Source: Azolla caroliniana (Eukaryota > Plantae > Polypodiophyta). From it: a stretch of DNA of 64,000 bases. Numbering within the stretch: position 1 is the stretch's first letter; each line of letters starts with the position of its first letter. The position numbers and the translations under genes were made by a program. The stretch spans positions 4,960,001 through 5,024,000 of the forward strand of contig JBHGNT010000021.1 in the NCBI GenBank assembly GCA_043228905.1. Direction: 5' to 3'. Below the pieces are notes generated by a model. That model saw only the letters and a program-made list of their open reading frames with translations. It was not told the origin of the DNA and did no database searches. This document shows, in pieces, positions 1 through 60,666 of the stretch.

Positions 1-873
1 CTCTTCTCCTCCAGCATTGCCCTAGCCGTGTCGACAATCATCTTAGTGGTGTAGTCCGTAACCGACATGTCTCTTTACCGGATGTTATTCAGCTCTTGCC
101 GAAGCTGCAACTTTCGGGATGTGCTACTCGCGACGAAAATCTTCGGTAGATTTTCCCAAGCCTCCTTCGAAGTCTTTGCATCCTTGATGTAGCCGAGCAT
201 CTGATCGTGCTCACAGGAAGCGAGGCAGTACAATACTCGACTCGCTCCTTGCTCCCATGTCAGGAAGTCCTTCTATGTTGGCTCCGGCGCTACCTCGTTG
301 GTTCCTTCCACGTAGCTCCAATATCCATGGCCCAACAGGTATTGGTGCATTTTATATGACCAGGACGCATAGTTGCTCCGGTCGAGCTTCTCTGTGGGAA
401 GTGAACTCGCCATACCTCTGTCCATATCTTTCTCTGTCTGTCCTTCACCGGATGTTAGGGTTTGTCTTCACTAGTCACTTGTCGGTTGAAGAGGTTCTCA
501 ACCCTCGCACTCTGATACCATGTGAAAGTTAGCGTGCAGAACCGTATTACAAACCGGCTCTACCGAATGGCGACAATAGAGAGAAAGGTTCAATGGAATC
601 TTAACATAGAGAATATGCGCGGGAGAGAGAGAGAGAGAGAGCAGAACGTAAACTCTATTCAGAAAGTAATAACACTCTGTATGTCACTCTACGTACATAG
701 AATGTGCTCAGAGAGCACTTTTATACAAGTCCATAAAGGACTGACAAAAGTACTGACAAGTACTTCAATGATTATACGAGCGATTGTCACTGACTCCCAA
801 AAATATGCCTACGTACTAGGTTGGATCCATAGGCCTCTAACGGCCTACTGGTTCCAATCATTCCACTCTCACA
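1..873 (-). mobile_element. Ty1/Copia LTR retrotransposon, 5' part (5' LTR 521-873, PBS, decayed gag fused to integrase); continues off the window
   Basis: LTR ends TGTGAAAG(521)...CTCTCACA(873). CTCTGATACCA at 510-520 is the reverse complement of the tRNA-iMet PBS. Minus strand reads gag-like 'HGYWSYVEG...AKTSKEAWENL...LQLRQEL...SVTDYTTK' with stops, then 'IVDTARAMLEEK' (integrase-like). Confidence 0.88.
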
Positions 874-1218
874 TATAGAAGTAAGGGATGTTGAATTTGC
901 AGACGACACTGCCCTATACTTAAAAGGTTATTTGGAAAATTTGCAAAAGATAGAATTGGTCATATACACATTCTATAAGGCTTTAGGTGCATTGGTTAAT
1001 TGGAACAAATCCTTTGCATTTTGGGTGGGAGATGTAAATCCACCGTTATGGAATCCACATCCGCAATTTCGATGGATACCATCAGGTTGCCCAGTTTGGT
1101 ACCTAGGATGTACTATAGATATTGATCTTTCGATGGAAAACCAAGTGACTCCCCTCCTATTGTCGTTGAGGCAAAAATGGTTGTTATGGAGTTCAGCCAA
1201 GTTGTCTTTCGTTGTCGT

Positions 1219-3239
1219 TGTCACGGACACACCAAGCGCGGACTAAGACGAAGCATGGATGATGAGGCTATGACGGAGCGATGATGCGAGGAACTTAAGA
1301 CAGGGAATGACACAAGAGCATAAAGATAGAGATGAAGATCAAGGAGAGAGGATGGGCGAAATGGGAATACAAGATTGATATGTCCATGACTAGCGTTGTT
1401 CACCTTGAATTCCTTCAAGGTGAAGTCAACTATTTATACTAAGCGGCATGCATACTTGTTGCACGCATGTGATACAATAGAGCATGTAGGCAGGAGGTAC
1501 GCATGCATGTGCCAAGTGTAAACAATACAAGGGAGAAATTATGCACATGATGCTAGCTTAAACCTACAATGAGGAAGTATATACATGATTATATGTTAGA
1601 TGTGTTGTTAACACATAACACTCCATTATAACATGGTCATGTCAAGAGTTTGAATCTTGACATTATCCCCCCTCCAACGATGCCTTCCCAAATCGTTAAT
1701 CGTCTTAAGGGTATATTGTTGATGAAAATCTTAGATCACCTCCAAAGTATTTTATAAATCCTAGACAAGGAGTAACCCTTCCACAAGACGAGGTATATAA
1801 CACCAACGGGCATGAGTGACCATGTGTGGTCCTTGCCTAGAACTGGAACACAAATATCAACGGGTGTGAGCGACCATGTGCGGTCCTGACGGGGAACTAG
1901 AACGGTCCCCGTTGAGAGTTGGAACACGAACACCAACGAGAGTGAACAACCAAGGACAACGAGAAATGGAACACGAACGAGTGAGCGACCATGTGGCCCT
2001 CACCGGGAACAGGAACACGAACAGGAGTAATCGACCATCTGCGGTCCTCACCGGGAATTGGAACATGTACAACAACGATCATGAGCGACCATGTCAGTCC
2101 TCACCGGGATCTAGAACACTAACAATAGTTGGAGTGAGCGGCCATGTGCAGTCCTCACCGGAGACTTGAACACGAACAGGAGTGAGAAACCATGCGGCCC
2201 TCACCAGGAACACGAACACGAACGGGAGCGAGCGGCCATGTGCGGGCCTCACCGAGAACACGAACACGAACGGGAGTGTGCGGCCATGTGTGGCCCTCAC
2301 CGGGAAAAGGAACACGAACGTGTGTGAGTGACCATGTAGCCCTCACAGGGAACTCAAACACGAACAGGCGTGAGCGACCATGCGGCCCTCACTAGGAACT
2401 CGAAAACAAACGTGTGTGAGCGACCATCCGGCCCTCACCGGGAACTCGAACACGAACGGGTGCGAGCGACCATGCGGCCCTCACCGGGAACTCGAACACG
2501 AAAACCAACGGGAGTGAGCGGCCTTGTGCGGACCTCACCAGGAACTAGAACACGAACACCAACGGGAGTGAGCGGCCTTGTGCGGCCCTCATCGGGAACT
2601 GAAACACAAACACCAACGGGAGTAAGCGGCCTTGTGTGGCCCTCACCGAGAACTAGAACACGAACACCAATGAGAAAGAAACTAAAAAATTGAGACAATG
2701 AAGCGATGTTGATAATGGTACGGTGACGATGGTAACTCTAGAACCAGGGGCGATGATGGAGACGGGTGATGCTTGTAGTTGGAAGGTGAACAAACTGTCA
2801 CGGACACACCAAGCGTGGACTAAGATGGAGCATGGATGATGAGGCTATGACGGAGCGATGACGTGAGGAACTTAAGACGGGGAATGACACAAAAGCATAA
2901 AGATAGAGATGAAGATCAAGGAGAGAGGATGGGCGAAATGGGAATACTAGATTGATATGTCCATGACTGGCGTTGTTCACCTTGAATTCCTTCAAGGTGA
3001 AGTCAACTATTTATACTAAGTGGCATGCATACCTATTGCACGCATGTGATACAATAGAGCATGTAGGCAATAGGTACGCATGCATGTGCCAAGTGTAAAT
3101 AATACAAGGGAGAAATTATGCACATGATGCTAGCTAAAACCTACAATGAGGAAGTATATACATGATTATATGCTAGATGTGTGGTTAACACATAACACTC
3201 CATTATAACATGGTCATGTCAAGAGTTCGAATCTTGACA
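1219..3239 (-). mobile_element. Non-autonomous chromovirus-derived LTR element (element A): 444-bp LTRs, tandem-repeat interior, chromodomain remnant
   Basis: LTRs 1219-1662 and 2796-3239 (TGTCA...TGACA, about 19 substitutions by eye). TSD GTCGT/GTTGT. PPT reverse complement TTATCCCCCCTCC at 1663-1675. Minus strand ~1700-1800 encodes 'IYLVLWKGYS' and 'DFHQQY'. Confidence 0.92.
1808..2670 (-). repeat. Tandem array of ~17 units of 46-54 bp, each with a GTGAG-GGCC-loop-GG(C/T)C-G-CTCAC hairpin
   Basis: Recurring + strand unit '...gaacacgaac(accaa)cgggagtgagcg(a/g)ccatg(tg)cggccctcaccgggaact...'. Confidence 0.95.
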
Positions 3240-3744
3240 GTTGTAGTGTATTTCATACACTACATGAAAAACTTATAAAGTAGTTGATTCAATAAATATG
3301 AAGAAATAGAAGAAAATATTAAAATATATATCATATGCATAGGGCAAGATTCAAACCTTGTACCTCCATGTAAACAAACTCAAACCTTACCATTATACTA
3401 ACATATCACAAGTGTTAAAAAAGTAAATATCCCACCTAGAAATTTTATTTCACGCATATTTTCTAGGATAAAGCTTTACTTAGAAGAAAAACGCATGATA
3501 GAAAAAAGCTACACATGCACATCTAGCGTGCATAAACACTATAGTCAATAAAAAATGCATGAGGTTAGAAAAAGCATGTTAGAGAAAGCATATAGTCTAT
3601 AGATAGAGAAAACATGGAGTCCATAGTTAGGGGGAAAAAATACATGGATTGCTAAGACTCTCTCATCACTAAATAAGGATGGGGAACACAATGTAATTGG
3701 AGAGAAAATTATCGATGAAGAATCATTAGGGTTCAAAAATAATG

Positions 3745-3990
3745 ATTAATAAAATAAACTATGCTTGTGGGATTCACAAGTTTTCTATATCTTTCTCTTC
3801 CAATCTATTCTAATTTATTAGTACGGTTTTAAATATTAATAAAATAAATAAACTATACTCGTGGGATTCATGAGGTTTCTATATCCTTCTCTTTCAAACT
3901 AAATTCATATTCTTAATTGAATATTGATTAATAAAATACACTATACTTGTGGGATTCACAAGTTCCTATCTCTCTTTCATATAATCTATT
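3745..3990. repeat. Three diverged ~85-bp tandem units in the solo-LTR-like insertion
   Basis: 'attaataaaata(a/c)actat(g/a)ct(t/c)gtgggattca(caa/tga)g...ctatatc' at ~3745, ~3835 and ~3925. Confidence 0.85.
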
Positions 3991-4840
3991 CATAACTAAA
4001 CTCGGCTCAAATTCTTCCTCTCCTAGTCCAAAACCCCAACGGTTCCCACCCGACTCACGCAACGATCCGGCGCCAAAAGGTGTGACATCGTTGGTCGGAT
4101 TGTAGTTGCCAATCAAGTTTTATTGGCTTCAACATGGTATGTTTTGTCATGTTAGATATTCTCCAAGTCATGTATTTTGAAAATACGTAGATTGATTCAT
4201 AATTTTCTGTGGTCCGGTAAAACGGAAGACAATGCTTGGTCTAAAGTGAAATGGGACGTAATTACTTTACCCCGCTCTAAAGGGGGACTAGGCATTATTG
4301 ATCCAGTAGACCAATCAAGAGCATTATTAAGTAAGTTGCTCGTTAGAGGATTTACCCCGGGGAAAGAGATATGGAAAGTATTATTGCTTGACCGCTGCTC
4401 AGATTTCTCTCCTCGCTTAGGTGCCCCCTGGTTTAAGGATGTAAATTGGATATTTAGGGAAAATTTTAGAATACCTACAGCTAACAAGTGGGAAGATAAA
4501 TTTATTAGGACATTATTTTCAACATGGAAACAAGTGTTACCTTGTTTGCTTCACAATTGTCATAATACGAACCCATGACCTTATGTTACATGGGTCAAGC
4601 TCTTGCCATTAGACTATATATTGTAATACGAAAGATGTTATTTTCATTTATTATTTCACTATAGAAAATTGATGTATATTCTAGATTTCTCTAGAACATT
4701 CTAGAAACTTCAGGAGTACTCCTGAAAACACTATAAAAGGAGGCACAAGGCATTATTTCGAACCAAATCAGTTTAACGCCAGTCTTAAGCCTCATAGCTA
4801 TTTTGTACTTACTCTTCATATAATATATCATCTATTATCA

Positions 4841-4915
<75 letters not shown>

Positions 4916-4918
<3 letters not shown>

Positions 4919-6027
4919 GGTGTGCATGTGTTCCTTTGTGCCACCCTTTTAGCACACCCTTTTTAGCCATGCCAACCCAAATGGGTTCCATTGTATCAAC
5001 TATAAATTGATTAAGAAGTAAGAAGCTAAGTAGACTGGTTTTGATCTCTTATGTGCATTCCACATATTGGTAGAGATGACGGGGTACCAGTCCCCCACAT
5101 CCAAGCATCCGCCTCTTCCGCTTCGTAGGTAGCATCGCCCTCACCACCATCACCGACACTCTTGTTAGTCTCTTGTAGTAGTATCTCTTCTATTAGCACC
5201 GCCTTAGTTCACTAGTTAGGCCTCCCGATATCCACCACTTCATCATCAACATCGCTTCATTGTCTCTATTTTTTAGTTTCTTTCGTGTTTGTGTTCGTGT
5301 TCTAGTTCCCGATGAGGGCCGCACAAGGCCACTCACACTCCCGTTGGTGTTCGAGTTCCCAATGAGGGCCACACATGGCTGCTCTCACTCCCGTTGGTGT
5401 TCGTGTTCTAGTTTCTGGTGAGGGGAGCATGGTCGCTCACACCCGTTCGTGTTCGAGTTTTCGATGTGGGCCGCACATGGCCGCTCACTCCCGTTCGTGT
5501 TCCTGTTCCCAGTGAGGGCCGCATGGTCGCTCACTCCCGTTTGTGTTCCAATCTTCGGTGAGGACCGCTCACTCCAACTATTGTTCGTGTTCTAGATCCC
5601 GGTGAGGACCGACATGGTCGCTCATGCCCGTTGTTGTTCATGTTCCAGTTCCCGGTGAGGGCCACATGGTCACTCACTCGTTCGTGTTCCAATTCTCGGT
5701 GAGGACAACATGGTTGCTCACGCCCGTTGGTGTTCGTGTTCCAACTCTCAGCGAGGACCGTTCCAGTTCCCGGCAAGGACCACACATGGTCACTCATGCC
5801 CCTCAATCTCTTGTTTCTCGCAGGGGGGAAATGTGGTGTGCATGTGTTCCTTTGTGCCACCCTTTTAGCACACCCTTTTTAGGATGCGTGTGCCCAAAAT
5901 GACCCACCCTTTTAGCACACCCTTTTTAGCCAGGCCAACCCAAATGGGTTCCGTTGTATCAACTATAAATTGATTAAGAAGTAAGAAGCTAAGTAGACTG
6001 GTTTTGATCTCTTATGTGCATTTCACA
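4916..6027 (+). mobile_element. Small non-autonomous TRIM-like LTR element (element B) in the (TA)n tract of the chromovirus 5' LTR
   Basis: LTRs 4916-5064 (149 bp) and 5832-6027 (196 bp, one extra 47-bp unit), TGTGG...CACA. PBS TGGTAGAGATGACGGGGTA at 5068 resembles the complement of plant tRNA-Ala. PPT AGGGGGGAAA 5822-5831. TSD is ambiguous within the TA tract. Confidence 0.9.
5285..5801 (+). repeat. Tandem array (~11 units) of the same hairpin repeat as 1808-2670, in reverse orientation on the + strand
   Basis: Units 'gtgttcgtgttc(t/c)agttcccggtgagggccgcatggtcgctcactcccgtt' are the reverse complement of the element A units. Confidence 0.93.
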
Positions 6028-6238
6028 TTATATATATATCCTTTTCTCTCTTCCTCTCTCGTGAGTCTTATGCATTCCCTTCTTCTTAGTACTAATCTTC
6101 ATAGTACTTCTCTTCTCTAGTACTAATTCTCTCTCTGTTTTAGTACTATTCCTGACAGTTTGAACCGATTTCTCCTTCCCTCCTCGTCATCTTATCCCTC
6201 CTTCCTTTCATACTAATCCTCTTATCCTCCCTAGTAAA

Positions 6239-9200
6239 ATGGCAACTATTAGCGCTCAGGGATACCAATCTGTTTTCTCGGAGCTCCAGTGCTTAAAAGA
6301 GAAATTTGTAGCACTAGAACAAGAAAATCACCATTTGTTGGGGGATCTTCAACAAATAGCGCTAGAAAAACAACAACACGGGGAGCTGACGTAACGTGTA
6401 CAACAACTTGAAGTGACTATTGTATCATTACAACAACAAGAATCAAGCACTCAAGGGATTCACAAAGAACCCAAGATCGGTCTTCCTACAAAATTCGATG
6501 GAACCCGATCACAGTTTAGAGGTTTTCTTAATCAGGTATGTTTAGTGATTCAAATGTGTGCTTCTCGATATCCCACCGATGCATCACGAGTGGGACTAGT
6601 AGGCACTCTACTTCGTGGCACAGCTTTGGCATGGTTTGCCCCCCTGTTAGAAAAAATCTCTCCCTTGTTAAATAATTTTGAAGAGTTTATTAGCAAGTTT
6701 AAAGCCTATTTTGGAGATACTGACAAAGTTAGGACGGCAATCAACAAAATCCGGAGATTGCATCCATTTCGCTACATCAATTGCGTGAGGAAGGATGCAA
6801 GGAAGCAATGTTTATCTTCGTAGTATCAGTAAAACCTTCCAACACCACTAAAGAGGAGTCCTCAGTTCAACTTCCAAAGAAGTATCGTCATTATGCCAAT
6901 GTGTTTGATAAGGTACAAGACAATACGCTTCCTCACCACCGACCGTATGATTGCCCCATTGATTTACAACCGAGAAAAAAGCCACCATGGGGACGATCTA
7001 CAATTTGTCACTGAACGAGCTAGAAGTCCTTCGAGCTATATAGAGGAGAATTTGGCAAACAATTTCATTCGACATTCGAAATCTCCAGCCGGCGCACCCA
7101 TTTTCTTCATCAAGAAAAAGGATGGATCACTTCGTCTCGTCATATACTACCGTGGCTTGAATAAGGTCACCATCAGGAATAGGTATGCACTTCCCCTTAT
7201 CTCAAGTATTTTAGAACAGTTCAATGGTGCAAGGTTCTTCACAAAGATCGACTTACGAGGAGCATATAACCTCGTACGGAACCAACCAAGAGATGAGTGG
7301 AAGACCGTGTTTCGCATTATATATGGGCAATTTGAGTATACAGTCATGTCATTCAGTCTCACTAATGCGCCAACAGTCTTCCAGCTCATGGCAAATCATA
7401 TATTCCGAGATCTCTTGGATGTTTGTTTGATCATCTATTTGGATGATCTACTAGTTTATTCGAAGACCCAAGAAGAGCATGATTCTCATGTACTATTAGT
7501 ACTAAAATGGCTTCGAGAATATGGTCTTTATGCAAAACTAGAAAAATGTAGTTTCAAGTGCAACCAAGTGGAATTTCTGGCTTATGTCATCTCCTCGAAA
7601 GGCATCTCTATGGATCCAGCTAAGGTCAAAACTGTGGTAGAGTGGTAGACTCCACGTTCGTTGCGAGATATGCAATGCTTTTTAGGCGTTGCCAATTTCT
7701 ACCACAAGTTTATACATGATTATTCAAAGATTATTCTACCTCTCACACAACTTATCAAGAAGGGGTAATCATTTGTTTGGTCTGAAGAAGTGGATATGGC
7801 TTTTGAGAGTCTTAAGAAGACATTTACATCAGCTCCTATCCTAGCTCATGCTGATCCGACAAAACCATTCATCATTAAGGCAGACGCATCAGATTTCGCC
7901 TTGGGTAGCATTCTTTCACAACAAGGCGATGATGAAAAGCTACATCATGTGGCTTGATCCGGCAAAACCATTCATCATTGAGGCAGACGTGTCAAATTTC
8001 GCCTTGGGTAGCCTTCTTTCACAACAAGGAGATGATGAAAAGCTACATCCTGTGGCTTTCCACTCACGCAAGTTTGACGTCACCGAAATCAACTATGAAA
8101 TTCACGATAAAGAGCTATTAGCAATAGTGGACTCTTTTATGCAATGGAGGCATTTCCTAGAGGGATCTGAATATCATCAAGTTCGGTGAGCCCAATTCCT
8201 CAAAATTACATATCGTCCTAGGAAGCAGCAAGGGAAGGTAGATGCGTTATCACGACACTCGTATCTGGCACCACGTCCCGGTGAGCCTGCATTCGATAAC
8301 CAAAAGCAAGTAATCCTGGGACTGGCACAACTGCAAGAAACACGGGTTTTCGATATGCCATTGGACTCCCACATTATCGATACCATACGTGGGGACTTGA
8401 AGACAGATGCTTTCGTTCAAGCCATTCTAGCACAAATTGATTCCTCTCGAGCATCTTGTTCACAGTCGCAACAACCAGGTACGGATTATCGACAATTCGA
8501 ATGTCATGATGGATTACTATTCTTTAAGAAGCTCTTGTATGTTCCTAATGGCTCTTGTCACCTTCAAGTAGTCCAAAATTGTCATGACACATATACAGTT
8601 GGGCATTTTGGTAGTACTAAAACGTTAAATTTAGTATAACGATCATTCTGGTGGCCTCATATGCGACGATTTGTCAAAGATTATGTTCGGACATGTGATA
8701 CATGTTTGCAGAGCAAAGATGCCAAGACATCATCTATATGGTTTATTGGAACCATTACCAATTCCAACCAAGTTGTGGCAATCCATTGCTCTAGATTTCA
8801 TCACAGATCTTCCTGTTTCTAAGGGATTTGATGCGATCTTAACAGTAGTAGATCGATATACAAAGATGGCCCATTTCCTACCATGTACTAAGGAAATCAC
8901 TAGAGAAGATACTATCGACAATTAGGTCCTTTCCGTACTATCGGAAAAATTAATGATGTCATTTTTCATCTCGATTTCCCTCCGCAACTGTGGATACATC
9001 CGGTGTTTCATAGTTCTCTCCTAGAACCCTATCAGAACAGCACCATCCCAGGTTGTATTAAACAACCTCCACCCCCGATCGAACTTGAAGATGGACATGA
9101 GTATGAGGTTGCCGCCATCCTCAATTCGAAGATTGTTCGCACCAAGCTCTGCTAGGATATAGTCCCAGCGAGCGTACTTGGGAACCAATAGAGAATGTGA

Positions 9201-9290
9201 CCAATGCTCATGCTCTTCTTGAAGACTTCCATCGTCAATCTCTAGACAAACCGGGTCCTCAATCCAAAACGACTCGTGACACTCGTCGTT
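6239..9290 (+). pseudogene. Chromovirus gag-pol remnant (gag, RT, RNase H, partial integrase, chromodomain)
   Basis: gag 'KEPKIGLPTKFDGTRSQFRGFL'; RT '[11 protein letters not shown]...KIDLRGAY...YLDDLL'; RNase H 'EADVSNFALG...NYEIHDKELLAI'; IN 'HDTYTVGHFG...ALDFITDLP...[11 protein letters not shown]'; chromodomain 'EYEVAAILNS...TWEPIENV...LLEDFH' (~9098-9250). Has stops, frameshifts, loss of protease and most of the IN core, and a 103-bp tandem duplication (7852-8057). Confidence 0.92.
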
Positions 9291-9842
9291 TTAAAGGGGG
9301 GATAGTTTCATGATATGGCAAGATTCCAACCCATGACCTTATGTTACATGGGTCGAGCTCTTGCCATTAGACTATATATTGTAATACGAAAGATATTATT
9401 TTCATTTATTATTTCACTATAGAAAATTGATGTATATTCCAGATTTCTCTGGAACATTCTAGAAACTTCAGGAGTACTTCTGAAAACACTATAAAAGGAG
9501 ACACAATGCATTATTTCGAACCAAATCGGTTCAACGCCAGTCTTAAGCCTAATAGCTATTTTGTACTTAAGAATTTGATGACATTCAAGTCGACCTTAGA
9601 TGATGGCACTATTCCTCAAGTTCCACTACGTCAGAAACCAAAGTTCAAATATTTGAGTATTCTCATAAATTAAATGACATGTATTTAACTAATAAAACAT
9701 AAAATTTTGTAAACCATCCTTATGATTTTCCTACAAAAAACTAGCTAAACAAATACCTAATTAGTTGTGGTCATTTTAGTAGCTAATTAGCTAATAATAA
9801 TAGTGTTTCCAGTCACATGCTTTTACCCATCATCTTTTATCA

Positions 9843-9924
<82 letters not shown>

Positions 9925-12900
9925 CATAGATTGACCCATGTGTGATATGTGTGGTATTCGACATCCGCAATATTCGTAGTATTCGAGAATATAAAATTGC
10001 TCCAAGAATATTATAAAACCATTCGTTTATAGAAAATAAATTTACATAATAAAAATTATTCAATTCACTTAAAAAAAGAAAGGAAAAATCACCAATTAAC
10101 AGAAAAATGGAAGGTCTTCAAAATCACACTAACATAAGAAAGAAAAGTTTTAATTAAAGTGATTATGAACCGTTATATTCTAATTTCTAAGTTCTAGGTT
10201 CTAACTTCTAACTTCTAAGTAATGCTTTGAAATTTAAGAGTCTATGCACTATCACATTCATCATCCGTATCTTCAAGCTCATCACTAATGTCCTTATGAG
10301 CTTCATTTTCTTCAATAGCTTGATTTTGCATTCTCAAAAGTCTCTCATCATCTTCTTCTTTGTTGATCATATCTAATGTTGCTTCAATTAGGCATAATCC
10401 CCTTTCCCTTATTCTTCTAATGAGACAATGATTTGTATGTATGTAAACCAATTTCTCAACATGAGCATGAGTCAATCTATTTCTTTTTTTTGTATGTATC
10501 GATGAGAATGTACTCCAATTTCTTTCACAAGAAGAGGCACATGAACCTTGAGAAAGCACACGAATTGCAAGCCTTTTTAAGTTTGGAGTGCTTGCTCCAA
10601 ATGTTTCCCACCACTTAATTGCATCATGCATTCTAGTTGGATCATTTGCCATAGGAACTTGAAATGAACTCTTTTGTTGAGTTTTATAATCATAGAATTC
10701 ATCTAATAAAACACCACATAAAGGTATATCACCATTAGTATACCACATAATAGTTTCCATCCAACTTGTATTCAGCTTCTCATCAATATCTTGAATTTTT
10801 TCTCTCCAAATTGGATGCAAAATAAAGCTAGTTGCATGCAATGGTGAATGTAGCATTGTCCATCTTTGCATACATATTCCCCGAATTTCATCAAGCAATA
10901 AATTATCTACATCTTCGATGTGGTTTATTTCTTCTATCATACGATGAGTACATTCATAAATTAAACCCATGGTTGCACCGTCTCTATCCGCCAATCTAAG
11001 AACTTTTAGGATTGGCTTGCATATCTTTACGATCTTCTTTATATTTGCCCAAAAAGAAGCATCAAGTATAATTGAAACTATTTCTTCTCCTAGTTGTGTT
11101 TTTTATCCTTTCCATTGACACCATTGTTCACTAACCACCATTCTTCTTAATCCACCTTTGACTCTGTCATCCAATAAGTGAGACAACATGATAAAACTAT
11201 AGGCAAATCTAGTAGTGGAAGGCTTTAACAATTCTTTCTCACTAAACTTACAAAACATTGCCAAAGAATTTTTTTTTCGTGTAATAAACACAATTACCTT
11301 TGTAGCTAATTTCAAAACATCATGAACCCAAGCACATTTTCCAATATCTTCAAACAACAAATCGATGCAATGACATGTGCATCTGGTAAAAAAGATCATG
11401 GGCCACTCTTTCTCTATCATCCTCCTAGCTACTACACAATTAGTTGCATTGTCCATACAAACTTGCACAACATTTGATGGGCCAATATCAAGAATAACAT
11501 CCTTTAAAATCTTAAAGATATACTCTCCCGATTTATATTCTCCACTAGTGTCAACTAATTTCAGAAACACAGTGCCATACGCAGAAGTAGCCATGACATT
11601 AAGTATTGGTCTATTCTTGGTATCTGACCAACCATCACTCACAATAGTGCATCCAATAGTTTTCCATTTTTCTCTAATTTGCATAATCTCCTTTTCAACA
11701 TATTTCACCTCTTCATTCAAGTGCCTTTTGCGCAATTGATTAGGAGATGGTGGCTCATAAGAAGGCCCAACAAGTGCCACAGCTTTTATTAATTCACAAA
11801 AATATGTACTTCCCACTTTTACATCCGGTATATCCTCTACAAAAAAAACCTCTTGATTGCTTCATCAGCATTTTTATCAAGTTGCTTTTGCCATAACAAC
11901 TTCAAAGGTTCAACATTGTCTACTTTCATCTTTTTACTTGTTGATGCATTACCAAACGATAATGAAGGCGTTTCATTAATAGATGTTGATTCCACATTCA
12001 TATCAACATTTGTGCTACAATTTTCAGCATTGCATTCCATTGATGACTCACCATTCATGTCAACATTTGCACAACCAGATACCATTTTTTGTACTTCAGC
12101 TTTTATAACAGCATCAATTTGACGGCATTTGTCAACACCTAAACCTTTCAAGCCCAGTAAGTGAGCTCTAATTCGAAAGGGCCCACCAACAAATACATGG
12201 TGACAATGTTTGCATTGAACAACAAGCATACCCTTATCATGTTTTCTCAAAACGGTCACATGATTCCATTTGAAGCTCTTTTGCTTCACCATTTAGTAAA
12301 TTAACCTTCAATTGATCCTGAAAGAGATTAATTTGATACCTAAAAATGAATTAAAACCATCGTTAGCCAAAATCTTCATTAATCCTACCTCTAATTAAAA
12401 TCTATTATGATTGCATAATCCTACAATGCTAGCATGAATAAATCACAGAAGATTGGACAACATTGAGATGAGAAGAGAGAGTTAATGAGCTTTGGCAAAA
12501 CCCTAATTTTCAAGGAATAATTTTAAGAGACTTTTTGATCCAAAATCTTCATTAATCCGGCCTCTAATTAAAATCTAATTAAGTTTGGATGATCCTACAA
12601 TGCCTCCAATTAAAATCTAATCTTATGATCATTGCATGAATAAATCATGGATTATTGGACAACTAATTTTTCCCAAACCCTAATTTTTAGGAAGCAATAT
12701 ATAGAAAGAGGTCTCAAATAGAATGCCTCCACAACCAATTTACTCAAGATACTATGACTAAATTATGCAACAAAATACACTATATTAAATGACCCAATTG
12801 ATAAAAAACCCATAGCATATTCATAATCCATGCAATTATTTTCAATATGTTTTCATCACCATAGCTCCTAACATCTTCATATTCCATGGAGTTATTTCCA

Positions 12901-13431
12901 TATGATCCTGATTCCTCATCATTACCAAGCATAGGTGGGGAGATAGGATACCTTTTTCTCAAAATTGGTTCAATTACACAGCTTATCATTTTCTTTATAT
13001 GCCTTAGTAGGACTGTCACTAACCAATGGTCATGGTTATAAACTTATATGCATTCAAAGGAGTAAAAAGAGTAGAAATTCATTATCCAGACACAATTATC
13101 AATAGCAGGAGGTTGGGACGTCAAACATCACAAAGCATGAGGAAATGTAGAAGAGAGACAGTCTTACCGAGTTTTGCCCAAACGTATGTCTTACGCAGGA
13201 GGAGGAAAGGACATAGGCGAACCCTAAATTTGAAGGAGTTGATATTTGATGGTGTTCACTATTCCCTATTGATTGCTATTCCTTGTAGAGCGCTTCCCTA
13301 TTCGCTACTCATTGAATACATTTTTTCAAAAAATAATAGGGAAAAAAAGTTAACGAATATTGGAAGATGTATTCTTATGCATATTCGTTGGTATTCGTGG
13401 GGGAGGCCTGACGAATGCGAATATGTCAATC

Positions 13432-13435
<4 letters not shown>
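9925..13435 (-). mobile_element. hAT DNA transposon (3.5 kb) in the (TA)n tract of the chromovirus 3' LTR
   Basis: 11-bp TIRs CATAGATTGAC (9925) and GTCAATCTATG (ends 13435). TATATATA flanks fit an 8-bp TSD. Clustered subterminal TATTCG motifs at both ends. Confidence 0.93.
10242..12292 (-). pseudogene. hAT transposase (BED finger, DUF659-like catalytic region, C-terminal dimerisation domain), broken by a frameshift and a stop
   Basis: 'WNHV...CKHC...RAHL' (12292-11837); 'GCTIVSDGWSD...VQVCMDNATN...CTCHCIDL...TRF' (11816-11103); 'WWETFG...LAIRVLSQGSCASSCERNWSTF...RNRL' (10994-10242). Confidence 0.92.
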
Positions 13436-13462
<27 letters not shown>

Positions 13463-16400
13463 CTTCTTTTCTCTCTTCCTCTCTCGTGAGTCTTACGCAA
13501 TCCCTTCTTCTTAGTACTAATCCTCATAGTACTTCCCTTCTCTAGTACTAATTCTCTCTCTGTTTTAGTACTATTCCTGACAGCAATAAACCTAAACCCA
13601 AACATTATCTTGAGAATCTTAGACAAAGGATAGTCTAGAATCCATTGTTTACAACATCAGATGGTTTAGTGTTGGGTTCTAGACAATGGTTATCATGGGG
13701 GAAAATGACAAAAGGTCCTGCAAAAACAATTCAGACATGGCAAAGTTTTTTATCACGTTCATGGGAAGAGCAAAAAAAAATCCTATGTAGTATGCATGGT
13801 GGCCAAATAATGTATCAACAAATTCAAGAAGCTTTGAGTAGACTCCCCATACCACCCAATAACTCTAACCACAGATGGGTTGGGGTTTATTCAAGGTTGG
13901 AAGTACTCTTGGTTGTTAAGGGGTATTCAGATGATAAGACCTACTGGTCTTTTGAAGTGGATGAAGCAAACCAATTGACTCAATCGGGGGAAATGAGGAT
14001 AGATTACCCTTATGGTATGGAACACAAGAAAAAGGTCATCGGATATGTTGGCCATAAATGGTATATATTGATCCAATGATTGAGGAAATAAGGACAGATT
14101 GGAAGTTGTGGGTGTTGGGTAGAAAACCGGTATTTAGATTAGAATGGGATCCAATTGATTATCAATGGACAAATCCCTTTATGGGTAACAAGTTCAATTT
14201 CTTCCAATATTCTGTACAGTTAGGAAGACATGTGCTTTCATATACACGTGATGTGTTACCGGACGCATTTCAATATTGGAATCAACAAGGTATTACTCCC
14301 TAATTCCTTGCAAACTCCTATGTTATATTATGGGCAAGAAAACAACCATACCAAATATTGCATGTACAATGGTTACTTGTACACCGAGCCTTGCCGGTTG
14401 GCACATGGTTGCATAGGATGGGAGTAGCTTCTATGTGTGCATGATGCCATTTACAAATGAAAACTCAAAAACATTGCTTATGGGAATGCACTAAGTCTCA
14501 GCTGATATGGCAACGTCTCCTTAGAATTTTTGCTAACTATTTCCCCCCATTGGTTTTCACTTGGGGCACGGTGGTTTGGACATCTCTTGTCCGTGATGCA
14601 TTTCATCATGACACTTAATCTATGGACCATGATTTTTACACTAAATCTGGAAGTGTTCATACATTACCATTGTTGTCATTACAGTTTGCAGCAACACGAA
14701 AGGAAGTCCAACCAGTATGGGAGATACTGAGTAGTACCACTATATATCACATTTGGAAGGTTAGGTGTTCTCTCATTTTCCATCAACTTAAAACACCACC
14801 GGCTAAATTAGTTTCAAATATTTGGTTAGACATAGTTCATACTTTGAAGGGACAATGGGATGGTATCATTGGAGATTCTGATGCTAAAATTGCTCAACGG
14901 CATGAGTTCATCATTATATGGAAAGCTACTCCATTCATGACAGCCAATTATGGTATTCCTTATTGGCATTTTCAACCTCTGAAATGGTTGTTTCCCCCAC
15001 CGATCACATAGAATTTAAAATCTTGTAAAGATGGTTACACTAATGACAAGATATCTTCTTTAAATAAATAAAAAACAAATAATGACACTCTAGATATCTC
15101 TCCTTGGATTCAACTTGGAATTATCATTTTTGACATTGTCTTCAACGAGATTTTCTATCGTGTCTTAATTTTGCCTTATTATCTTCTTTCACAACAAGAA
15201 TTCACTTTGAGATGAATTGTTAGATTATTTGAAATTTTCCATCTCAAGCAAGGTGGTCATCCACAATAATATGGTTGTTTTGCGAGAAGTAATGTTCTCC
15301 CACAATCTCAATGAAGCTAATAAAATAATGGCTACATAGCTAGACCATCTTCATCAATTTAAATCTCGACACTAAGAAGTTGAGCATTGCACATCTAGAA
15401 CTTGCTTACATGACTTGAGAATTTATAATATTCTAACGTCTTCAACTCGAACAACATTTTCTTCAAATATATAACCTATTTGTCAAAATTTTGATATATT
15501 TAGTTTCTCCTATTACTTCACCAAATTTCAACCCAAAACTTCATTTCTAAAGCAAGATGGGGTCTTCTTTTGCTCATATCTTTGCTTGTAATTCTTTCCA
15601 ATCATAATCTTTCCTGTCTTTGGGATTTATGTTGGCTAAAGCCTTATATACACCCAATTGTGCCAACACATACTTTGGAAAAAATGATGAAGTTGGTATT
15701 TTCATCGAAAGGCATTGGGTCAAACATCATACTAGCCATTGCTCTAATACCAATTATTATGTGTAAAGTAATTATAATACCATAAACAAAGATTATGTGA
15801 AAATAAAGGCAAAACAAAACAAAATGAAAATGAGGACATGAGAAATTTACACAATTTGACCATTTGCCTATGTTCATGTGACATTGTTATTTCCACTCAT
15901 AAGATTACACGTAGGATACAAAAGAAAACTCACAATTTGTTGTCAACCTTATTTCCCTAAAAAAAACTTTGGTTTTCAATCTAATTTGGACTTCCCTAAA
16001 AAATACACTCGGGTTTTCAATTTAATTTGGACTTAATTATTTGCTAAACTTGTTTATCTCTTATCTCTTTACCTCTTTGATATTCAATCACAAAGAATGG
16101 ATTATTATTTATAGGCTTTTTAAATATAACATGCATGAGACACTTGTTTGGCATGCAAATGCAAACAATGGTTCGCTCCTTATCAAAAAAGACTCAGTTT
16201 AATTGAAGCCACAATGGTGCATTTGCTAACAATAATCATATTTTGTAATGTGATATATGAAGGTTCATGCAACATTGGTATCTCAACCCTTGGATCGTGG
16301 AATCTTAGATAAGCTCCTTTGTCCTCTTCAGAAATTTAATGTCAATAGCATTCTAATATGGTGATCATTGAATCCTCGTTAACAAAATCTTATTCACTAC

Positions 16401-17549
16401 TAGATTTTGTTTAAATCATTGATATCATTTTCAACCCTTGGGTTGTGGGAAGTGATTTTACAAAGTCATTTTCCATCTTTTTAGGCAATATAATTGCTTT
16501 AAACCCCCGCGTCGTGGAGTATGACTTTGTAAAGCTTTTTTTTTGCTATGAATGTCCAAACATCTCTTATAACATGTTGTCATTATCAACTCTTTGGATT
16601 GTGAAATGTGAATTTCTGAAGCTCGAATATGTGGTATTGTTTTCAACCAATGGGTTGTGGCCATTTCCTGCCTTGTTTGGGAAAAGTGATATTCTAAAGC
16701 CGTTTTTTAAGGTGAATTTATCCTAATAGTATACATTTTCTTGACTTGTCCAAAGACACACTTCCATAAGTAAATAAATCAATTTTAAATGTTCGGAGCT
16801 TCATAAATATTCTCGAATAAGGATCATAAAAAGTCGATACCAAATTACCAAAGTGAATATTCATTAATTTATGTGTGTTTTAGGCCTCAATTGTGTAAAA
16901 CTCCTAATTAAGATATATTATCGAGTATTGCCAAGCTAGTTACTTCGTTGCATAACATCGTGTAAACATAAATGAAAGAATAATAAAAGTTGTGTTTGGG
17001 TTTGCTAAAAAGTGTTGAACACTTGGATGGTAGCTAGAGAGTTTAAACATAGATTCTTTAATTGAAGAACTATGACTGATTTAAGATTGGCACATGTGTC
17101 GAACATTACAGTTGGGTCTTCTTTAGTATCAAAGGTTTGCAACTTAAATGATGAGGAAATCAAAGATACTTTGATCGAATAGTAGGTATGAGTCAAAGGT
17201 TCATGTTCATGATTTCAAAAGTGAAGGTTAACAATATCCTTGAGACATTTGGAAAGTAAAGCAATCCGGAAAACTCAAGAGTTTTAATGATATCAGGTAG
17301 AAACAATTTACAAGATATTACTTAGGAAAGCTCAATATGAAAGCAATGGAGAAGAGATGAGACATTAATGATACTCGTGCAAGTAGAACATCATCTTGTT
17401 TTTTCCATTAGATGTTTGTAAGAAGTATAATCACACAAAAAAATGTGTGAAATAGGGCTATGATAATCTTATGTTTTTAGATTGTGGAATGAAGGCTAAA
17501 GTATTTGAATTAAGGTTATATTCATTGTACTCAACTTTTACGTTTTTAG

Positions 17550-18250
17550 CTTGAGATTGTGTTCACGAACATCATTTTCCCCCAAAAGAAATTGTGTACA
17601 AAAGATACTTTCCATGGCGGAAATGTTGAAAACAAACCACATCAATGCCGACAAAATGAGCAATAATCATGCATTGGCTTGAGATCATGTACACTAACAA
17701 AATAGCTCCCTAATACATTCCACAATCCAAGGGTTGAGAATGATAGTTTTAAAGTTTCCAAAATGAGCATTTGAGATCATGTCATTGGCCTTTTTCTCCT
17801 AACAAAACGACATTACGGATTTACATTCCAGAGTGTTGAGAGCGATTGCATAAATGCTAATAAAAGGAACAACATTCATGGTGCTAGTTCAAGATCGTGT
17901 ACGTTTACACAACACTTTTATGTTGCTTTTCTTATAAACAAACAAATTTATGGATTTACATTCCACAAGGTTGAAAAGGATAGCATTAATTCTAATTAAA
18001 ATGAGCTATGTTTTTACGTTTTCGTTTCGAGATCATGTACACTAACACATCATTCACTTGACCCATCTCTCCTAAAGAAAGGGCTTTACAAGTTCACATA
18101 TTTCCACAAGGTTGAATTTGGTTATGCTCATGTTAATAAAAGGAGCAATGCGCACGTTTTTACAGTTAGGAGATCATGCACACAAGCACTTCATAAATAC
18201 TTATTCCTGAAAATATGGCTTTAGAGAATTTACTTTCCACAATCCAAGGG
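17550..18250. repeat. Highly diverged ~90-140 bp tandem units
   Basis: Recurring 'gagatcatgt(a/g)cac' and 'tt(t)acattccacaa...ggttga' at ~17551, 17679, 17771, 17889, 18027, 18170. Confidence 0.65.
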
Positions 18251-19019
18251 TAATGCATTTATAAGGCGATGATAATAATATCGAAGAAGATCACACAGTT
18301 CTCGCCCATCTCACTTTTGTCTCCCTAACATGCATATGATATACACAAAAACACAACACTCAAAGAGATGCAACTAAAGTATAATCAATCATGGACTTCA
18401 ACACACCATCAAGTAATTAATTGGCATGATTGCCATTGGAAAATTGTTTACTCGCATATCATTGTTCAATCACATGTCGAAATGGTTATTTATAAGGGTA
18501 ATACATATACACGATCCAAGGGTAATACATTTATAAGGCAATGCTAATCATATCGAAGAAGATCACAGAGTCTTCTCGACTATCTCACTTTTGTCTCCCT
18601 CGCATGCATATGATATACACAAAATACAACACTCAAAGAGATGTAGCTAAAGTATAATTAGTCATGGACGTCAACACACCATCAAATAATTAATTGGCAT
18701 GATTGCCATTGGAAAATTGTTTACTCACATATCATTGTTCACTCACATGTAGAAATGGTTATTTATAAGGGTAATACATTTACACGATCCACGGGTAATA
18801 CATTTATAAGGCAATGCTAATAATATCGAAGTAGATCACATAGTCTTCTTGCCCATCTCACTTTTGGCTCCTTGGCACGCATATTATATACCCAAAACAC
18901 AACGCTCAAAGAGATGCAACTAAAGTATAATTAGTCATGGACTTCAGCACACCATCAAGTAATTAATTGGCATGATTGCCATTGGAAATTTGTTCACTCA
19001 CATGTAGAAATGGTTATTT
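18242..19019. repeat. ~272-bp tandem repeat, about 3 copies
   Basis: 'atcca(a/c)gggtaat(g/a)catttataaggc' at 18242, 18514 and 18787, collinear throughout. Confidence 0.93.
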
Positions 19020-21539: not shown

Positions 21540-22250
21540 CTCACTCACTCACTCACTCATCTCATACACACATACACACATACATACATATTTGCATACA
21601 TATATGCATGCATGCATACATACACATACACACATACCATACCATACATACATACATACATATCTATATACATACATGCATGCATATAGATACACATACA
21701 CATACACATACACACATACCATACCATACATACATATATATCTGCATACATACATACACATACATACATAGATATACATACATACATAGATATACATACA
21801 TACATACACATGCATACATACATACATACATACACATGCATACATACATACATACATACACATGCATACATACATACATACATACACATGCATACATACA
21901 TACATACACATACATACATACACATGCATACATGCATACATACATACATACACATACATACATACACATGCATACATGCATACATACATACATACACATA
22001 CATACATACACATGCATGCATACATACATACATACACATACATACATACATACATACATACATACATACATGCATACACATACATACACATGCATACATA
22101 CATACATACATAGATACATACATACACATACATACACATGCATACATACATACATACATAGATACATACATACACATACATACACATGCATACATACATA
22201 CATACATACACACACACATACATGCATACATACATACATGCATGTATGCA
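21540..22250. repeat. Compound (CATA/CA/CATG)n microsatellite, ~700 bp
   Basis: Directly visible; it produces the H/T/Y/I and M/Y/V/C ORFs. Confidence 0.97.
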
Positions 22251-23733: not shown

Positions 23734-26700
23734 ATGAAAACAAAGTGTTCCAAAGAAGAGAAATTTTTCTCTTCTTCTTTCTGCTGCTCAATGAATTCTT
23801 CCTCCAGCCCGTCCGTCTCTTCTCGAGCCCGAGATTCTATATTCAATTATGATATAAGTCTTCTGAATCAAGAAGAAACTGTGCTTGACTTGCCGTGGAT
23901 TTCAACTTCTGATCAGAAAGAGATCAGAATTGAGAAGAAAAACAGGAAAGACGATGAAGAAGAAAGTGAGGTTCAAAGACGGGCTCTTGGGAGACTGAGA
24001 TGCTCGATTCTCAAAGAATGGAGCATAAATTCGATAACTCGATTGATGTGTGGCGTCGTTTGCAATCCTCTTCTCAGCTCAAGGTTTGCTTTAATGGTAT
24101 GCTTTCTACTACCTTTTGGGGGTTCAAGAATTGCATTAATTGTATACTTAATACCTGTTTTTGCGTTTTATGGTTAAATTCGAGTGTTTCATTAATGGGG
24201 TTTACACATTTGCTGTGAGGATTGGCATTTGTAGTATCTTTTGTAGCTGAAGGGTTTAAACCCTGTTTAGGGTTTTAGGGTTTAGAGTTCAAGTCTTGGA
24301 ACCCTCTTCTTAGATCAATGTTTGCGGTAATAGTATGTTTATAATAACTATTTAGGGCTATGCAATTAAAGGGTTGCGTTAATGGCATGCTTATGATATT
24401 TGTTTTAGGGTTTAGTGTTGCGTGATGTAGGTTCAAGTTTTAGCAGTTAAGTTTATGTTTTAGGGTTTTAAGATTTTACTACTTATTATAATATCGATTC
24501 AATTTGAGCGTTAGGGTGGTTCAGGTTTTAGTTTACGGGCTTATTATAGCAGTGAAGAATTCGGGGTTTAGTATTCTTTTAATGTCGATCTATGTTTTGG
24601 TCCAGGGACTCAGAATTTAGGGTTTCATGCTTAAGGGCTTTGGTTTATTAAAATGTAGAATTGAGTGAGTTTTTTGGGTTTAGGGTTTTTTAGCATTTAG
24701 GATTTATTATATTGTTGATCTGTTATGGGTACCCTTCTTGTCTGATTAGATTTCGTATTTTCCATTTCTTATCATTATTATTATTCCTTATGGGTTGAGG
24801 TTTTATTGCTTATGATTTATAGTTTAAGGCATTCTTATACATATCATCTATTTCAGGTATCTTTCAGTTCAGACCAGACTCACCAATCTTTGTTTATTAT
24901 TTCTTCTTACATACATCAGGGATTACTGGCATTACTTCTGATCTTGATGACAGCATTTACTTGGGTGCTTACGTCCACAAATGTGGAGCATTCCGTGAGC
25001 TCAATCGCACTGAAATTACGTTCTGAACTGCTCTTCCAGGCAGGAGACAGAGTGAATGCTGTGCTTCAAGGGAGTAATGCTTCTGCAACTTCTTTGGCAA
25101 GGTTTTTGAGTCCATTCATTAATCAAGACAACATATCCTCCCTTTCTTACATTCAAAATCAGGTAAGCTTGGACATTGCATTTTTGAAGATGTAGGATTT
25201 TGGGTTTTAGACATTGAGGATTAAGGATCTTAGTATTAAGGAATAATGAGTAATATTTCTGGTTTAGGGGTTTTGGTTCTAGGTTTTAAGGGGGGGGTGG
25301 GATAATTTAGGGGAGTGTGTTACACTATGACTTTATGTAAGTGTTCAAGGTTGTTGGACAAATTCTTGTGGTGTCTCAGGTGGAGCCTGCTCTGTTCTTA
25401 ACTTTCTCAATCCTTTCGAGGAAAGCACGAGTCACATTCCTCGGTGCAAATGGATTGTTTCGATCGTATGTTGCAGATGCCACAGGGGTATGTCTACTAT
25501 ATGCAAACACTTCATATCTCTTCCCCAACTCATCTGATAAGATTTCAGAGCCATCGGCAATTCCATGGAAGGAAGGCGAAAATTTAACGATTACTCGCCC
25601 ATGGTATAGATGGTATTATCAGAGAGTTGATGTAATCTCAGGTGCATTGATAGGGGAAGCCACATCAATTACTCCAATACCCTATTGGGATATCTTGCCA
25701 TTGAAGAATTCATTGAAAGGTCACTCTACATCGGTGAGTTGGGGACCTTCTCCCATTGATATAAATGAGATTTCATTCTCATTCTTGTCCCCTGTTCAGC
25801 AAAATTTGAGAGAAAATCCAGTCGGGGTTGTCTCAATTGGGGTTTCTATGGCAGACATAATTAGCATTATTGACCAGTTTGAGCTTTATGGTGGGGCAAT
25901 ATACATTGCGACAAATGATGGAAAATTGGTGGCTCAAACTAGATTCAGTTCTTTGCCATTGGACACTGATAATAGCAGCTCAATATCAGCGATTACAAAT
26001 TCTAACAATCCCATTGTTGCCGGGGCTGCTCAATATTTGATGCCATATATCCCTTCCATTTTAGCTATGACAAACCGCTCCTTCACAGCAGAGGATGTTG
26101 ACATTCATGGTACCCGCTACATGATCAATAGTGCACCTCTTCATTTAGCAGGGGCTACATTGGTAATTATCCTTTTTCGGCCTCATCTGTAGCAATTTTG
26201 AATGAAGTATAGAAATTAGTGTTTGAATCTTTTTTCGACTTCAACTAGTTGATCTTCACCATTCATCTATCTTGTGATAAACATAATGCAGGTGTGTACA
26301 GTAATAGTTCCCTACCACAGTGTCTGGGGCATGACGGAAAAGCGAAGCCAAATGACCTTAGCAGTATTGATTGCATTGGGTACTTGTATGGGTCTAGTAG
26401 GATGTTTCTTCATTATTCTATTAACCAAGGGAATCAGCAACGAGATGAGGCTGCGGGCGTCATTGATTCAGCAGCTTGAAGAGACAAAACGGGCTGAATC
26501 AAAGAGCAACCACAAGAGCCTTGTGTTTGCAAACATGAGTCACGATCTTCGCACTCCGTTGGCTGCCATTCTTGGCCTTATTGACCTGTGTCTTTGTGAT
26601 GCTACTGAGTTGTCAGAATTGGAGTCAAACCTCATACAAATGAAATCATGTGCCACCAACTTGTTAGGTAAGGCTTTTTTGAGCTTGGTTTTTTCCTTGA

Positions 26701-60095: not shown

Positions 60096-60666
60096 GAGTT
60101 GTAATGGCCAACATATGTTCAACGTTTCAAAAGAATAGTGTGAGCATTTCTATCAAGAAAGAATCAAGTACACATTTTTCTAGCACTTCAAAGACAGTAT
60201 TTTATTAAGCGTATTATTCATATTTCGCAAACCTTGAGCTTGCACATATGTAGAAATTGGTAGCTCAAACAAAATTTGACCACATTGTACATGCCATGGG
60301 CTAGTTATCAAAATGCATTCGATATATTTTTACGTACAGGAATGCAACTCATGTGATGATCAAAATTATCTTTATTAAGAGTTGTAATGGCCAACATATG
60401 TTCAACGTTTCAAAAGAATAGTGTGAGCATTTCTATCAAGAAAGAATCAAGTACACATTTTTCTAGCACTTAAACTCTTCAAAGACAGTATTTTATTAAG
60501 CGTATTATTCATATTTCGCAAACCTTGAGCTTGCACATATGTAGAAATTGGTAGCTCAAACAAAATTTGACCACATTGTACATGCCATGGGCTAGTTATC
60601 AAAATGCATTCGATATATTTTTACGTACAGGAATGCAACTCATGTGATGATCAAAATTATCTTTAT
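60096..60666. repeat. Near-perfect ~283-bp tandem duplication
   Basis: 'gagttgtaatggccaacatatg' at 60096 and 60379; the second copy has a small insertion. Confidence 0.95.

What the first reader, a model, noticed from the sequence alone, without database searches (positions are those of the whole stretch)
1219..6027. One hairpin-array cargo carried by two unrelated LTR shells with different priming systems
Seen: element A (444-bp LTRs, no tRNA PBS, chromodomain remnant) and element B (149/196-bp LTRs, tRNA-Ala-like PBS) show no LTR similarity by eye, yet their interiors are homologous and in the same sense relative to each element. The shared block (A ~2714-1808, B ~5243-5801) opens with a non-repetitive leader 'atcaacatcgcttcattgtctc.attttttagtttctttc'. 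It keeps idiosyncratic units in the same order ('actccaactattgtt.gtgttctagatcccggtgagg', 'ttccaactctca.cg.ggaccgttc', terminal 'ggcaaggaccacacatggtcactcatgccc'). Inference: a non-coding RNA module has moved between retrotransposon lineages, for example by template switching after co-packaging, and replaces gag-pol. It would behave as a hyperparasite or portable packaging module. I do not recognise this as a described family.
Basis: partly seen in the sequence, partly recalled or inferred. Interest (0 to 1): 0.85.

Follow-up and report, generated by a model that had tools for sequence, protein, structure and literature searches.

The report
Repeat cargo swapped between retrotransposon lineages
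Two gene-less plant jumping elements with unrelated ends and different predicted ways of starting their copying carry the same internal repeat array, which likely passed from one to the other by recombination and likely rides along as a passenger rather than as a structured RNA device.

Summary
A (1219-3239, minus) has a self-priming site and a chromodomain remnant, so it is Tcn1-like. B (4916-6027) has a tRNA-Ala primer site, so it is Selgy-like. Their LTRs do not align. Both carry the same 44-bp leader (42/44 identical) and a colinear array of 44-56-bp units, 91% identical. B is not a one-off chimera: contig L001 has the same 5' junction at another locus. In related plants both shells are abundant. 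There, the array-chromodomain junction of A is bridged, but 9 of 11 listed B-shell contigs run into other sequence where the cassette starts. The cassette was therefore likely captured into a B subfamily from A-type elements, at short microhomologies, and then copied. The 'functional RNA module' reading is unsupported: the arrays fold less stably than shuffles, the unit hairpin has no compensatory pairs, and there is no ribozyme or Rfam match. Shared interiors and internal arrays are known in plant non-autonomous LTR elements. However, all 16 modular groups in the sugar beet survey keep one primer type, so crossing the self-priming/tRNA-priming divide is the new aspect. New variant of a known kind; interest 0.45.

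The parts
2796..3239 (-). Element A 5' LTR (444 bp); TATAAA at 3015-3010; predicted self-primer at 2983-2973
2783..2795 (-). Element A primer-binding site, complementary over 11 nt to its own LTR (predicted self-priming, Tcn1/Tf1 type)
   Evidence: PMC6317226 passages
2718..2782 (-). Element A own short 5' interior; at most weak similarity to B's (7 of 300 shuffles score as high)
2674..2717 (-). Shared non-repetitive leader, copy in A
   Evidence: 42/44 with B
1799..2673 (-). Tandem array in A: 18 units (mostly 44-54 bp, one of 22 bp), each a GTTC-NN spacer plus a foldable 9-bp stem
1690..1798 (-). Broken chromodomain end of a Tcn1-like pol gene, joined directly to the array
   Evidence: Chromo E=0.35, weak
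1663..1675 (-). Element A polypurine tract
   Evidence: sequence
1219..1662 (-). Element A 3' LTR; target duplication 1214-1218 / 3240-3244 (4 of 5 match)
4916..5064 (+). Element B 5' LTR (149 bp; lacks 47 bp of the 196-bp form also seen in L001)
5068..5085 (+). Element B primer-binding site for tRNA-Ala (one change from the form in L001)
5086..5240 (+). Element B own 5' interior; in relatives it mostly continues into other sequence, not the leader
5241..5284 (+). Shared leader, copy in B; same junction in L001
5285..5801 (+). Tandem array in B: 11 units, a colinear subset of A's units
5802..5831 (+). Element B own 3' tail and polypurine tract (5822-5831)
5832..6027 (+). Element B 3' LTR (196 bp); flanks ATAT / TTAT inside a TA microsatellite
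4558..13583 (+). Element C, host of B: degenerate Tcn1-like gag-pol element (LTRs about 96% identical); B sits in the TA repeat of its 5' LTR, a hAT transposon in the TA repeat of its 3' LTR. Its LTR is unrelated to A's or B's and it lacks the array

Best explanation
A and B are members of two repeated, gene-less LTR retrotransposon families with unrelated LTRs and different predicted priming (A self-primed and Tcn1-like, B tRNA-Ala-primed and likely Selgy-like) that share one leader-plus-array cassette, which was likely copied from an A-type element into a B shell by recombination at short microhomologies and then likely spread as a passenger. Shown: anatomy, homology, colinearity, a second B-type copy, abundance of both shells in related plants. 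Inferred: (1) an old Tcn1-like deletion derivative replaced gag-pol with an expanding tandem array; (2) two template switches during reverse transcription of co-packaged RNAs put the cassette between B's own 5' interior and B's own 3' tail; (3) the hybrid kept B's primer site, tract and LTR ends, so a B-type helper would mobilise it; (4) units are gained and lost by slippage, and the stem is inherited from the founding unit rather than selected as RNA structure.
For: LTRs unrelated, leader and units homologous and colinear. L001 has another flank, a 196-bp LTR (194/196 to B), the same 5' interior (174/176) and the same junction, but its own variants and two fewer units. Related-plant contigs: 1,245-7,722 laid per run on the A stretch and 627-6,332 on B; 2 listed pieces (runs X1, X2) bridge A's array-chromodomain junction with 31 or more letters each side. 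Direction: of 11 listed pieces covering B's 5' interior, 9 run on for 21-127 unlike letters past 5226-5241, 2 end, none enters the leader; B's units are a subset of A's and lack A's distinctive units A13 and A16. Microhomology: CACCG just before the leader in A and L001; loose ends in run X3 show B tails that begin with the same TCATGCCC that ends the cassette. No RNA-structure signal. Lineage marks: Tcn1 83% self-priming with 5-bp duplications, Selgy 90% tRNA-Ala with 4-bp duplications (PMC6317226 supplement).
Against: No genome was held, so copy numbers, trees and junctions rest on one extra contig and truncated tables (32 pieces shown of about 15,000-19,000). No listed piece bridges A's 5' junction, and one A-shell piece in X16 also leaves at 2723. 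13 contigs in X2 and X3 have array-like GTTC repeats in front of B's 3' tail, so a related array may be older in the B lineage and the direction could be reversed or two-way. B has no coding remnant and its 4-bp duplication is imperfect (ATAT/TTAT in a microsatellite), so 'Selgy-like' rests mainly on the primer site. Template switching cannot be told from DNA repair by sequence alone. The array is CpG-rich (observed/expected 0.9-1.0 against 0.64 in the window), which a pure passenger does not obviously explain.
Confidence: 0.6

Rival explanations
1. Portable RNA packaging or dimerisation module: the hairpin array is bound by Gag of more than one lineage, which both favours co-packaging and gives any shell that captures it an advantage.
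For: The cassette lies just downstream of the primer site, where packaging signals usually are (own knowledge). It makes up about 80% of A's interior and A is abundant. 91.6% of stem cells pair in 25 units. It persists in two shells.
Against: Arrays fold worse than 98 of 100 and 20 of 20 shuffles. Of 11 sense-strand units folded, one reached z below -2. 0 pairs with change on both sides; covariation score matched by 172 of 500 shuffles. L001 and B differ by two whole units, and B has lost a loop. B keeps its own 5' interior. Only two shells found.
Confidence: 0.13
2. The array is a DNA-level cis element (enhancer or anti-silencing binding array) that keeps the element transcribed, so shells that capture it amplify better.
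For: CpG not depleted in the cassette, unlike the LTRs (0.61 and 0.22). Regular 44-56-bp spacing with a conserved core and no RNA covariation. Palindrome-rich cis regions are known in Sirevirus LTRs (PMC4728375, abstract).
Against: No binding, methylation or expression data. Recent homogenisation of units could also keep CpG high. The array is inside the transcript, not in the LTR promoter.
Confidence: 0.15
3. The array is native to the 3' region of the tRNA-Ala-primed lineage (as with 3' arrays of Tat/Retand elements); B is a plain deletion derivative and A captured the block.
For: The array ends 30 nt before B's 3' LTR. Non-chromovirus elements often have such arrays (PMC11963269 and PMC6317226, passages). 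Array-like letters precede B tails in 13 contigs. The other sequence after B's 5' interior could be the deleted middle of a longer element.
Against: B's array is a reduced subset of A's, and A runs 9 nt further into the last unit. Selgy elements are described as short with coding sequence filling the interior. No coding element with B's LTR was seen.
Confidence: 0.2
4. Local artefact: gene conversion between neighbours 1.7 kb apart, a single chimeric copy, or a misassembly.
For: The two elements are close and inverted; no other copy lies in the 64-kb window.
Against: L001 has the B junction with a different flank and is 97.9% like B but 92.5% like A. The A junction exists in related plants.
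Confidence: 0.03

Closest known systems
Non-autonomous LTR families and 'modular groups' of sugar beet (Maiwald et al. 2026, PMC13570524; abstract, passages, sections 25 and 37, supplement sheet 1.1 read)
   Same: Gene-less LTR elements with primer site and tract; 10 of 115 families have internal satellite-like arrays; 55 families in 16 groups share regions; TRIM-03 and TRIM-04 both have arrays and share part of the interior (M1); template switching is invoked.
   Different: In the supplement every group M1-M16 has one primer type (Met, or Asp for M11 and M12). Here the shared block spans a self-primed and a tRNA-Ala-primed shell with no LTR similarity.
Tcn1 chromoviruses (PMC6317226; passages, section 9, supplement file 3)
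   Same: Element A: self-complementary primer site, 5-bp duplication, chromodomain end before the tract.
   Different: A has no gag or pol; an array replaces them.
Selgy non-chromoviruses (PMC6317226 supplement file 3)
   Same: Element B: tRNA-Ala primer site, probable 4-bp target duplication.
   Different: No coding sequence to place it; Selgy was defined from Selaginella; 4% of Athila also use tRNA-Ala.
Retand/Tat elements with pol-3'LTR tandem arrays (PMC11963269, passages)
   Same: Internal arrays of variable unit number close to the 3' LTR, function unknown.
   Different: Those arrays are described as family-specific and sit in coding elements primed by tRNA-Lys/Arg.
VL30 and Harvey/Kirsten sarcoma virus recombinants (PMC9450689, passages)
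   Same: Non-coding interior of a non-autonomous element found between the LTRs of another lineage after recombination.
   Different: Animal retroviruses; VL30 has a described packaging signal, none is shown here.
Retrozymes (PMC4918200, search listing only)
   Same: Non-autonomous plant LTR elements with a non-coding interior.
   Different: No hammerhead motif or Rfam match in A or B.

Membership tests
Non-autonomous LTR retrotransposon (TRIM/LARD-like) | Two LTRs, primer site, polypurine tract, target duplication, no full coding capacity | tested here: met
   B's duplication is imperfect in a TA repeat
Non-autonomous LTR retrotransposon (TRIM/LARD-like) | Several dispersed copies | tested here: met
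   B: window plus L001; both shells abundant in related-plant contigs. Full-length A copies elsewhere were not seen whole.
Tcn1 chromovirus derivative (A) | Self-priming site complementary to the 5' end of the transcript | tested here: met
   11-nt exact complement 32 nt after TATAAA; 0 of 20,000 shuffles; transcript start not measured
Tcn1 chromovirus derivative (A) | Chromodomain at the end of pol; 5-bp target duplication | tested here: inconclusive
   Chromo E=0.35, below cut-off; duplication 4 of 5
Tcn1 chromovirus derivative (A) | RT/integrase phylogeny | not testable with these tools
   A has no RT; its helper was not found
Selgy non-chromovirus derivative (B) | tRNA-Ala primer site | tested here: met
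   L001 site matches 16 of the first 17 letters of a published probe against the 3' end of human tRNA-Ala; the host's own tRNA was not available
Selgy non-chromovirus derivative (B) | 4-bp target duplication | tested here: inconclusive
   ATAT precedes B in the window, in L001 and in two loose-end rows; the right flank is TTAT
Selgy non-chromovirus derivative (B) | RT phylogeny | not testable with these tools
   no coding remnant; no partner found
Retrozyme | Hammerhead ribozyme | tested here: not met
   no CTGANGA..GAAA in A or B (motif recalled); no hammerhead in Rfam scan to E=5
Cassandra | 5S rRNA-like segment in the LTRs | tested here: not met
   Rfam scan of 1200-6200 gave 3 weak matches, none 5S
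Independent insertion (MITE, SINE) | Own target duplication, terminal inverted repeats or poly(A) tail | tested here: not met
Structured cis-acting RNA (packaging signal) | Stability above chance or compensatory base changes | tested here: not met
   only 25 related units, so power is low
Structured cis-acting RNA (packaging signal) | Required for encapsidation | not testable with these tools
   needs particles or a reporter

The most novel reading that the evidence does not exclude
The leader-plus-array is a selected, portable cis module (packaging, dimerisation or anti-silencing) that works with both chromovirus and non-chromovirus machinery and has jumped across the self-priming/tRNA-priming divide, a hyperparasite that changes shells.
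Probability: 0.17. Interest if true: 0.8.

Novelty: new variant of a known kind. Interest (0 to 1): 0.45.

Why it matters
Recombination between very distant LTR lineages is thought to be rare (PMC6894440, section 9), and the modular groups in the sugar beet survey do not cross primer types. A spreading hybrid between a self-primed chromovirus derivative and a tRNA-Ala-primed element suggests that RNAs of deeply split lineages can meet in one particle, or that DNA repair shuffles interiors freely. The function of internal arrays in plant LTR elements is stated to be unknown (PMC11963269); one array in two shells, with array-less B relatives as a natural control, makes that testable.

Tried and rejected
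No whole genome held; L001's source could not be searched further. Sequencing-run search: 20 of 24 rows hold part of A, none half of its words, so these are relatives; no RNA holder listed. Viral contigs: 0 matches for two unit patterns and one B-LTR pattern; one relative of C's RT, L003, without the array. Bacterial genomes: one isolated unit-like match, L002, treated as chance. No diverged array elsewhere in the window (2 outside matches at E 6-10). Coding origin of the array rejected: unit lengths of 44, 46, 50, 53 and 56 break any frame. Likeness to a hammerhead core or a Pol III B-box (both recalled) rejected: the conserved GAAA is missing and GTTCGA is one variant of a GTTC-NN repeat. 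Element C as helper of A: same lineage marks but no LTR similarity, so unproven. Summed depths were not used as copy numbers. The soybean LTR-swapping paper was not held and is known only from a reference list. Literature searches for a cross-priming case found none; subscription papers and the sugar beet dotplot PDF were not visible.
Full report
Setting. The window is plant DNA rich in transposons.

Element A (1219-3239, minus strand). Its LTRs are 444 bp and 425/444 identical, with a 5-bp target duplication showing one mismatch. It has no tRNA primer site. The letters after the 5' LTR are an exact 11-nt complement of LTR positions 257-267, 32 nt downstream of TATAAA, which 0 of 20,000 shuffles reproduced. 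This is the self-priming arrangement predicted for 83% of Tcn1 elements, which have 5-bp duplications (PMC6317226 supplement). Before the polypurine tract lies a broken chromodomain end (Pfam Chromo E=0.35, the only family hit, below cut-off) laid out like that of the neighbouring coding element C. A is thus a Tcn1-like derivative whose gag-pol has been replaced.

Element B (4916-6027, plus strand). Its LTRs are 149 and 196 bp, 146/149 identical apart from a 47-bp gap. The primer site matches tRNA-Ala: the form in L001 agrees at 16 of 17 letters with a published probe against the human tRNA-Ala 3' end. In the REXdb table tRNA-Ala dominates only in Selgy (90%, 4-bp duplications). B lies in the TA repeat of element C's 5' LTR, flanked by ATAT and TTAT. 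With no coding remnant, 'Selgy-like' is an inference.

The shared block. LTRs of A and B do not align better than shuffles (129-257 of 300 as good), nor do the 3' tails (33 of 300); the 5' interiors are at most weakly alike (7 of 300). The leader is 42/44 identical, and the whole cassette 90.9%. A has 18 units, B 11; each B unit has a best match in A in the same order, and B lacks A3, A5-A8, A13 and A16. The block has no own duplication, inverted ends or poly(A), so it is not an independent insertion.

Family or accident? One metagenome scan for the leader gave 1 match, L001. It has an unrelated upstream flank, a 196-bp LTR, B's 5' interior (174/176), the same junction and an array 97.9% like B's with two fewer units. 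It is a short-read contig, so its flank could be joined through the LTR, but its variants show a second B-type copy. Contigs of four runs from related plants (best share of words 0.22) cover both elements end to end in hundreds to thousands of pieces. Of 32 pieces listed for A, 2 bridge the array-chromodomain junction and one more falls one letter short of the rule; none bridges the 5' junction and one leaves A at 2723. Of 32 listed for B, 11 cover its 5' interior: 9 continue for 21-127 unlike letters past 5226-5241, 2 end, none enters the leader; loose-end rows in three runs (7, 7 and 3 contigs) show the same departure. So many B shells carry something else there. Against a simple picture, 4 and 9 contigs in X2 and X3 have GTTC-repeat letters in front of B's 3' tail, so a related array may pre-exist in the B lineage. 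The tables are cut, and long low-depth contigs favour old variants, so these counts are not frequencies.

Is the cargo a structured RNA? Each unit can fold a 9-bp stem with one bulge. But the whole arrays are less stable than shuffles (z +1.75, +1.88), single units are mostly within chance (1 of 11 sense units below z -2), and in 25 aligned units no pair changes on both sides and the covariation score equals that of shuffles (the units are related and few, and two rows are misaligned at the 3' end, so power is limited). Rfam gave 3 weak, irrelevant matches and there is no hammerhead core. The cassette is not CpG-depleted (0.9-1.0 against 0.64), which remains unexplained and keeps a DNA-level role open.

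Mechanism. Most likely an A-type RNA and a B-shell RNA were copied in one particle and reverse transcriptase switched templates twice, at CACCG before the leader and at TCATGCCC at the array's end. The product kept B's primer site, tract and LTR ends and would be mobilised by B's helper. Capture during DNA repair would look the same (roughly 40%). Direction A to B is favoured about 60:40. LTR identities (A 95.7%, C about 96%, B 98%) and the 8-9% cassette divergence put the exchange somewhat before both insertions.

Comparison. Shared interiors, internal arrays and template-switch hybrids are described for sugar beet non-autonomous elements (PMC13570524), including two array-bearing families that share an interior. 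All 16 modular groups there keep one primer type. Recombination between very distant elements is called rare (PMC6894440 section 9). Internal arrays of Retand are family-specific with unknown function (PMC11963269 passages). VL30 recombinants are the animal parallel (PMC9450689 passages). Searches found no self-priming/tRNA-priming case; the library lacks most subscription papers. The scan's own index had nothing on these sequences.

Verdict. Real, family-level, and a new variant of a known kind: the crossing of priming systems is the notable part; the 'portable RNA module' is possible but has no support here. Interest 0.45.

Noticed in passing
window 833-15011: Nested stack: a LINE-like frame (833-1218, 4156-4557, 13639 onward) is split by A, by an AT-rich insert with 94-bp repeats (3737-3969), and by element C, which itself holds B and a hAT transposon, each in the TA repeat of one LTR.
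   Followed up: partly
window 4912-4915; L001 818-821: B-shell insertions are preceded by ATAT in the window, in L001 and in two loose-end rows, suggesting a target preference.
   Followed up: partly
window 1808-2717 and 5241-5801: The two cassettes form a 91% inverted repeat 2.5 kb apart; read-through transcription could give double-stranded RNA and small RNAs.
   Followed up: no
window 2961-3000 (and 1384-1423): A's LTR has a short inverted repeat over the predicted self-primer; 20-34 contigs per run in X1-X3 diverge at 2975, indicating a sister LTR type sharing the R-U5 part.
   Followed up: no
window 49980-54323 (-): Copia element with an unbroken 1447-aa frame (gag, integrase, RT) and near-identical LTRs holding 27-bp repeats; probably young.
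   Followed up: no
window 24746-28944 (+): CKI1-like histidine kinase gene; named flowering-plant relatives are only 35-47% identical over the piece searched, consistent with a non-flowering land plant.
   Followed up: partly
window 39311-40959 (-): Gene with a C3HC4 RING finger at its end.
   Followed up: no
window 18238-19003, 60096-60666, 21563-22243: Tandem repeats of 273 bp (2.8 copies) and 291 bp (2 copies), and a long CATA microsatellite.
   Followed up: no
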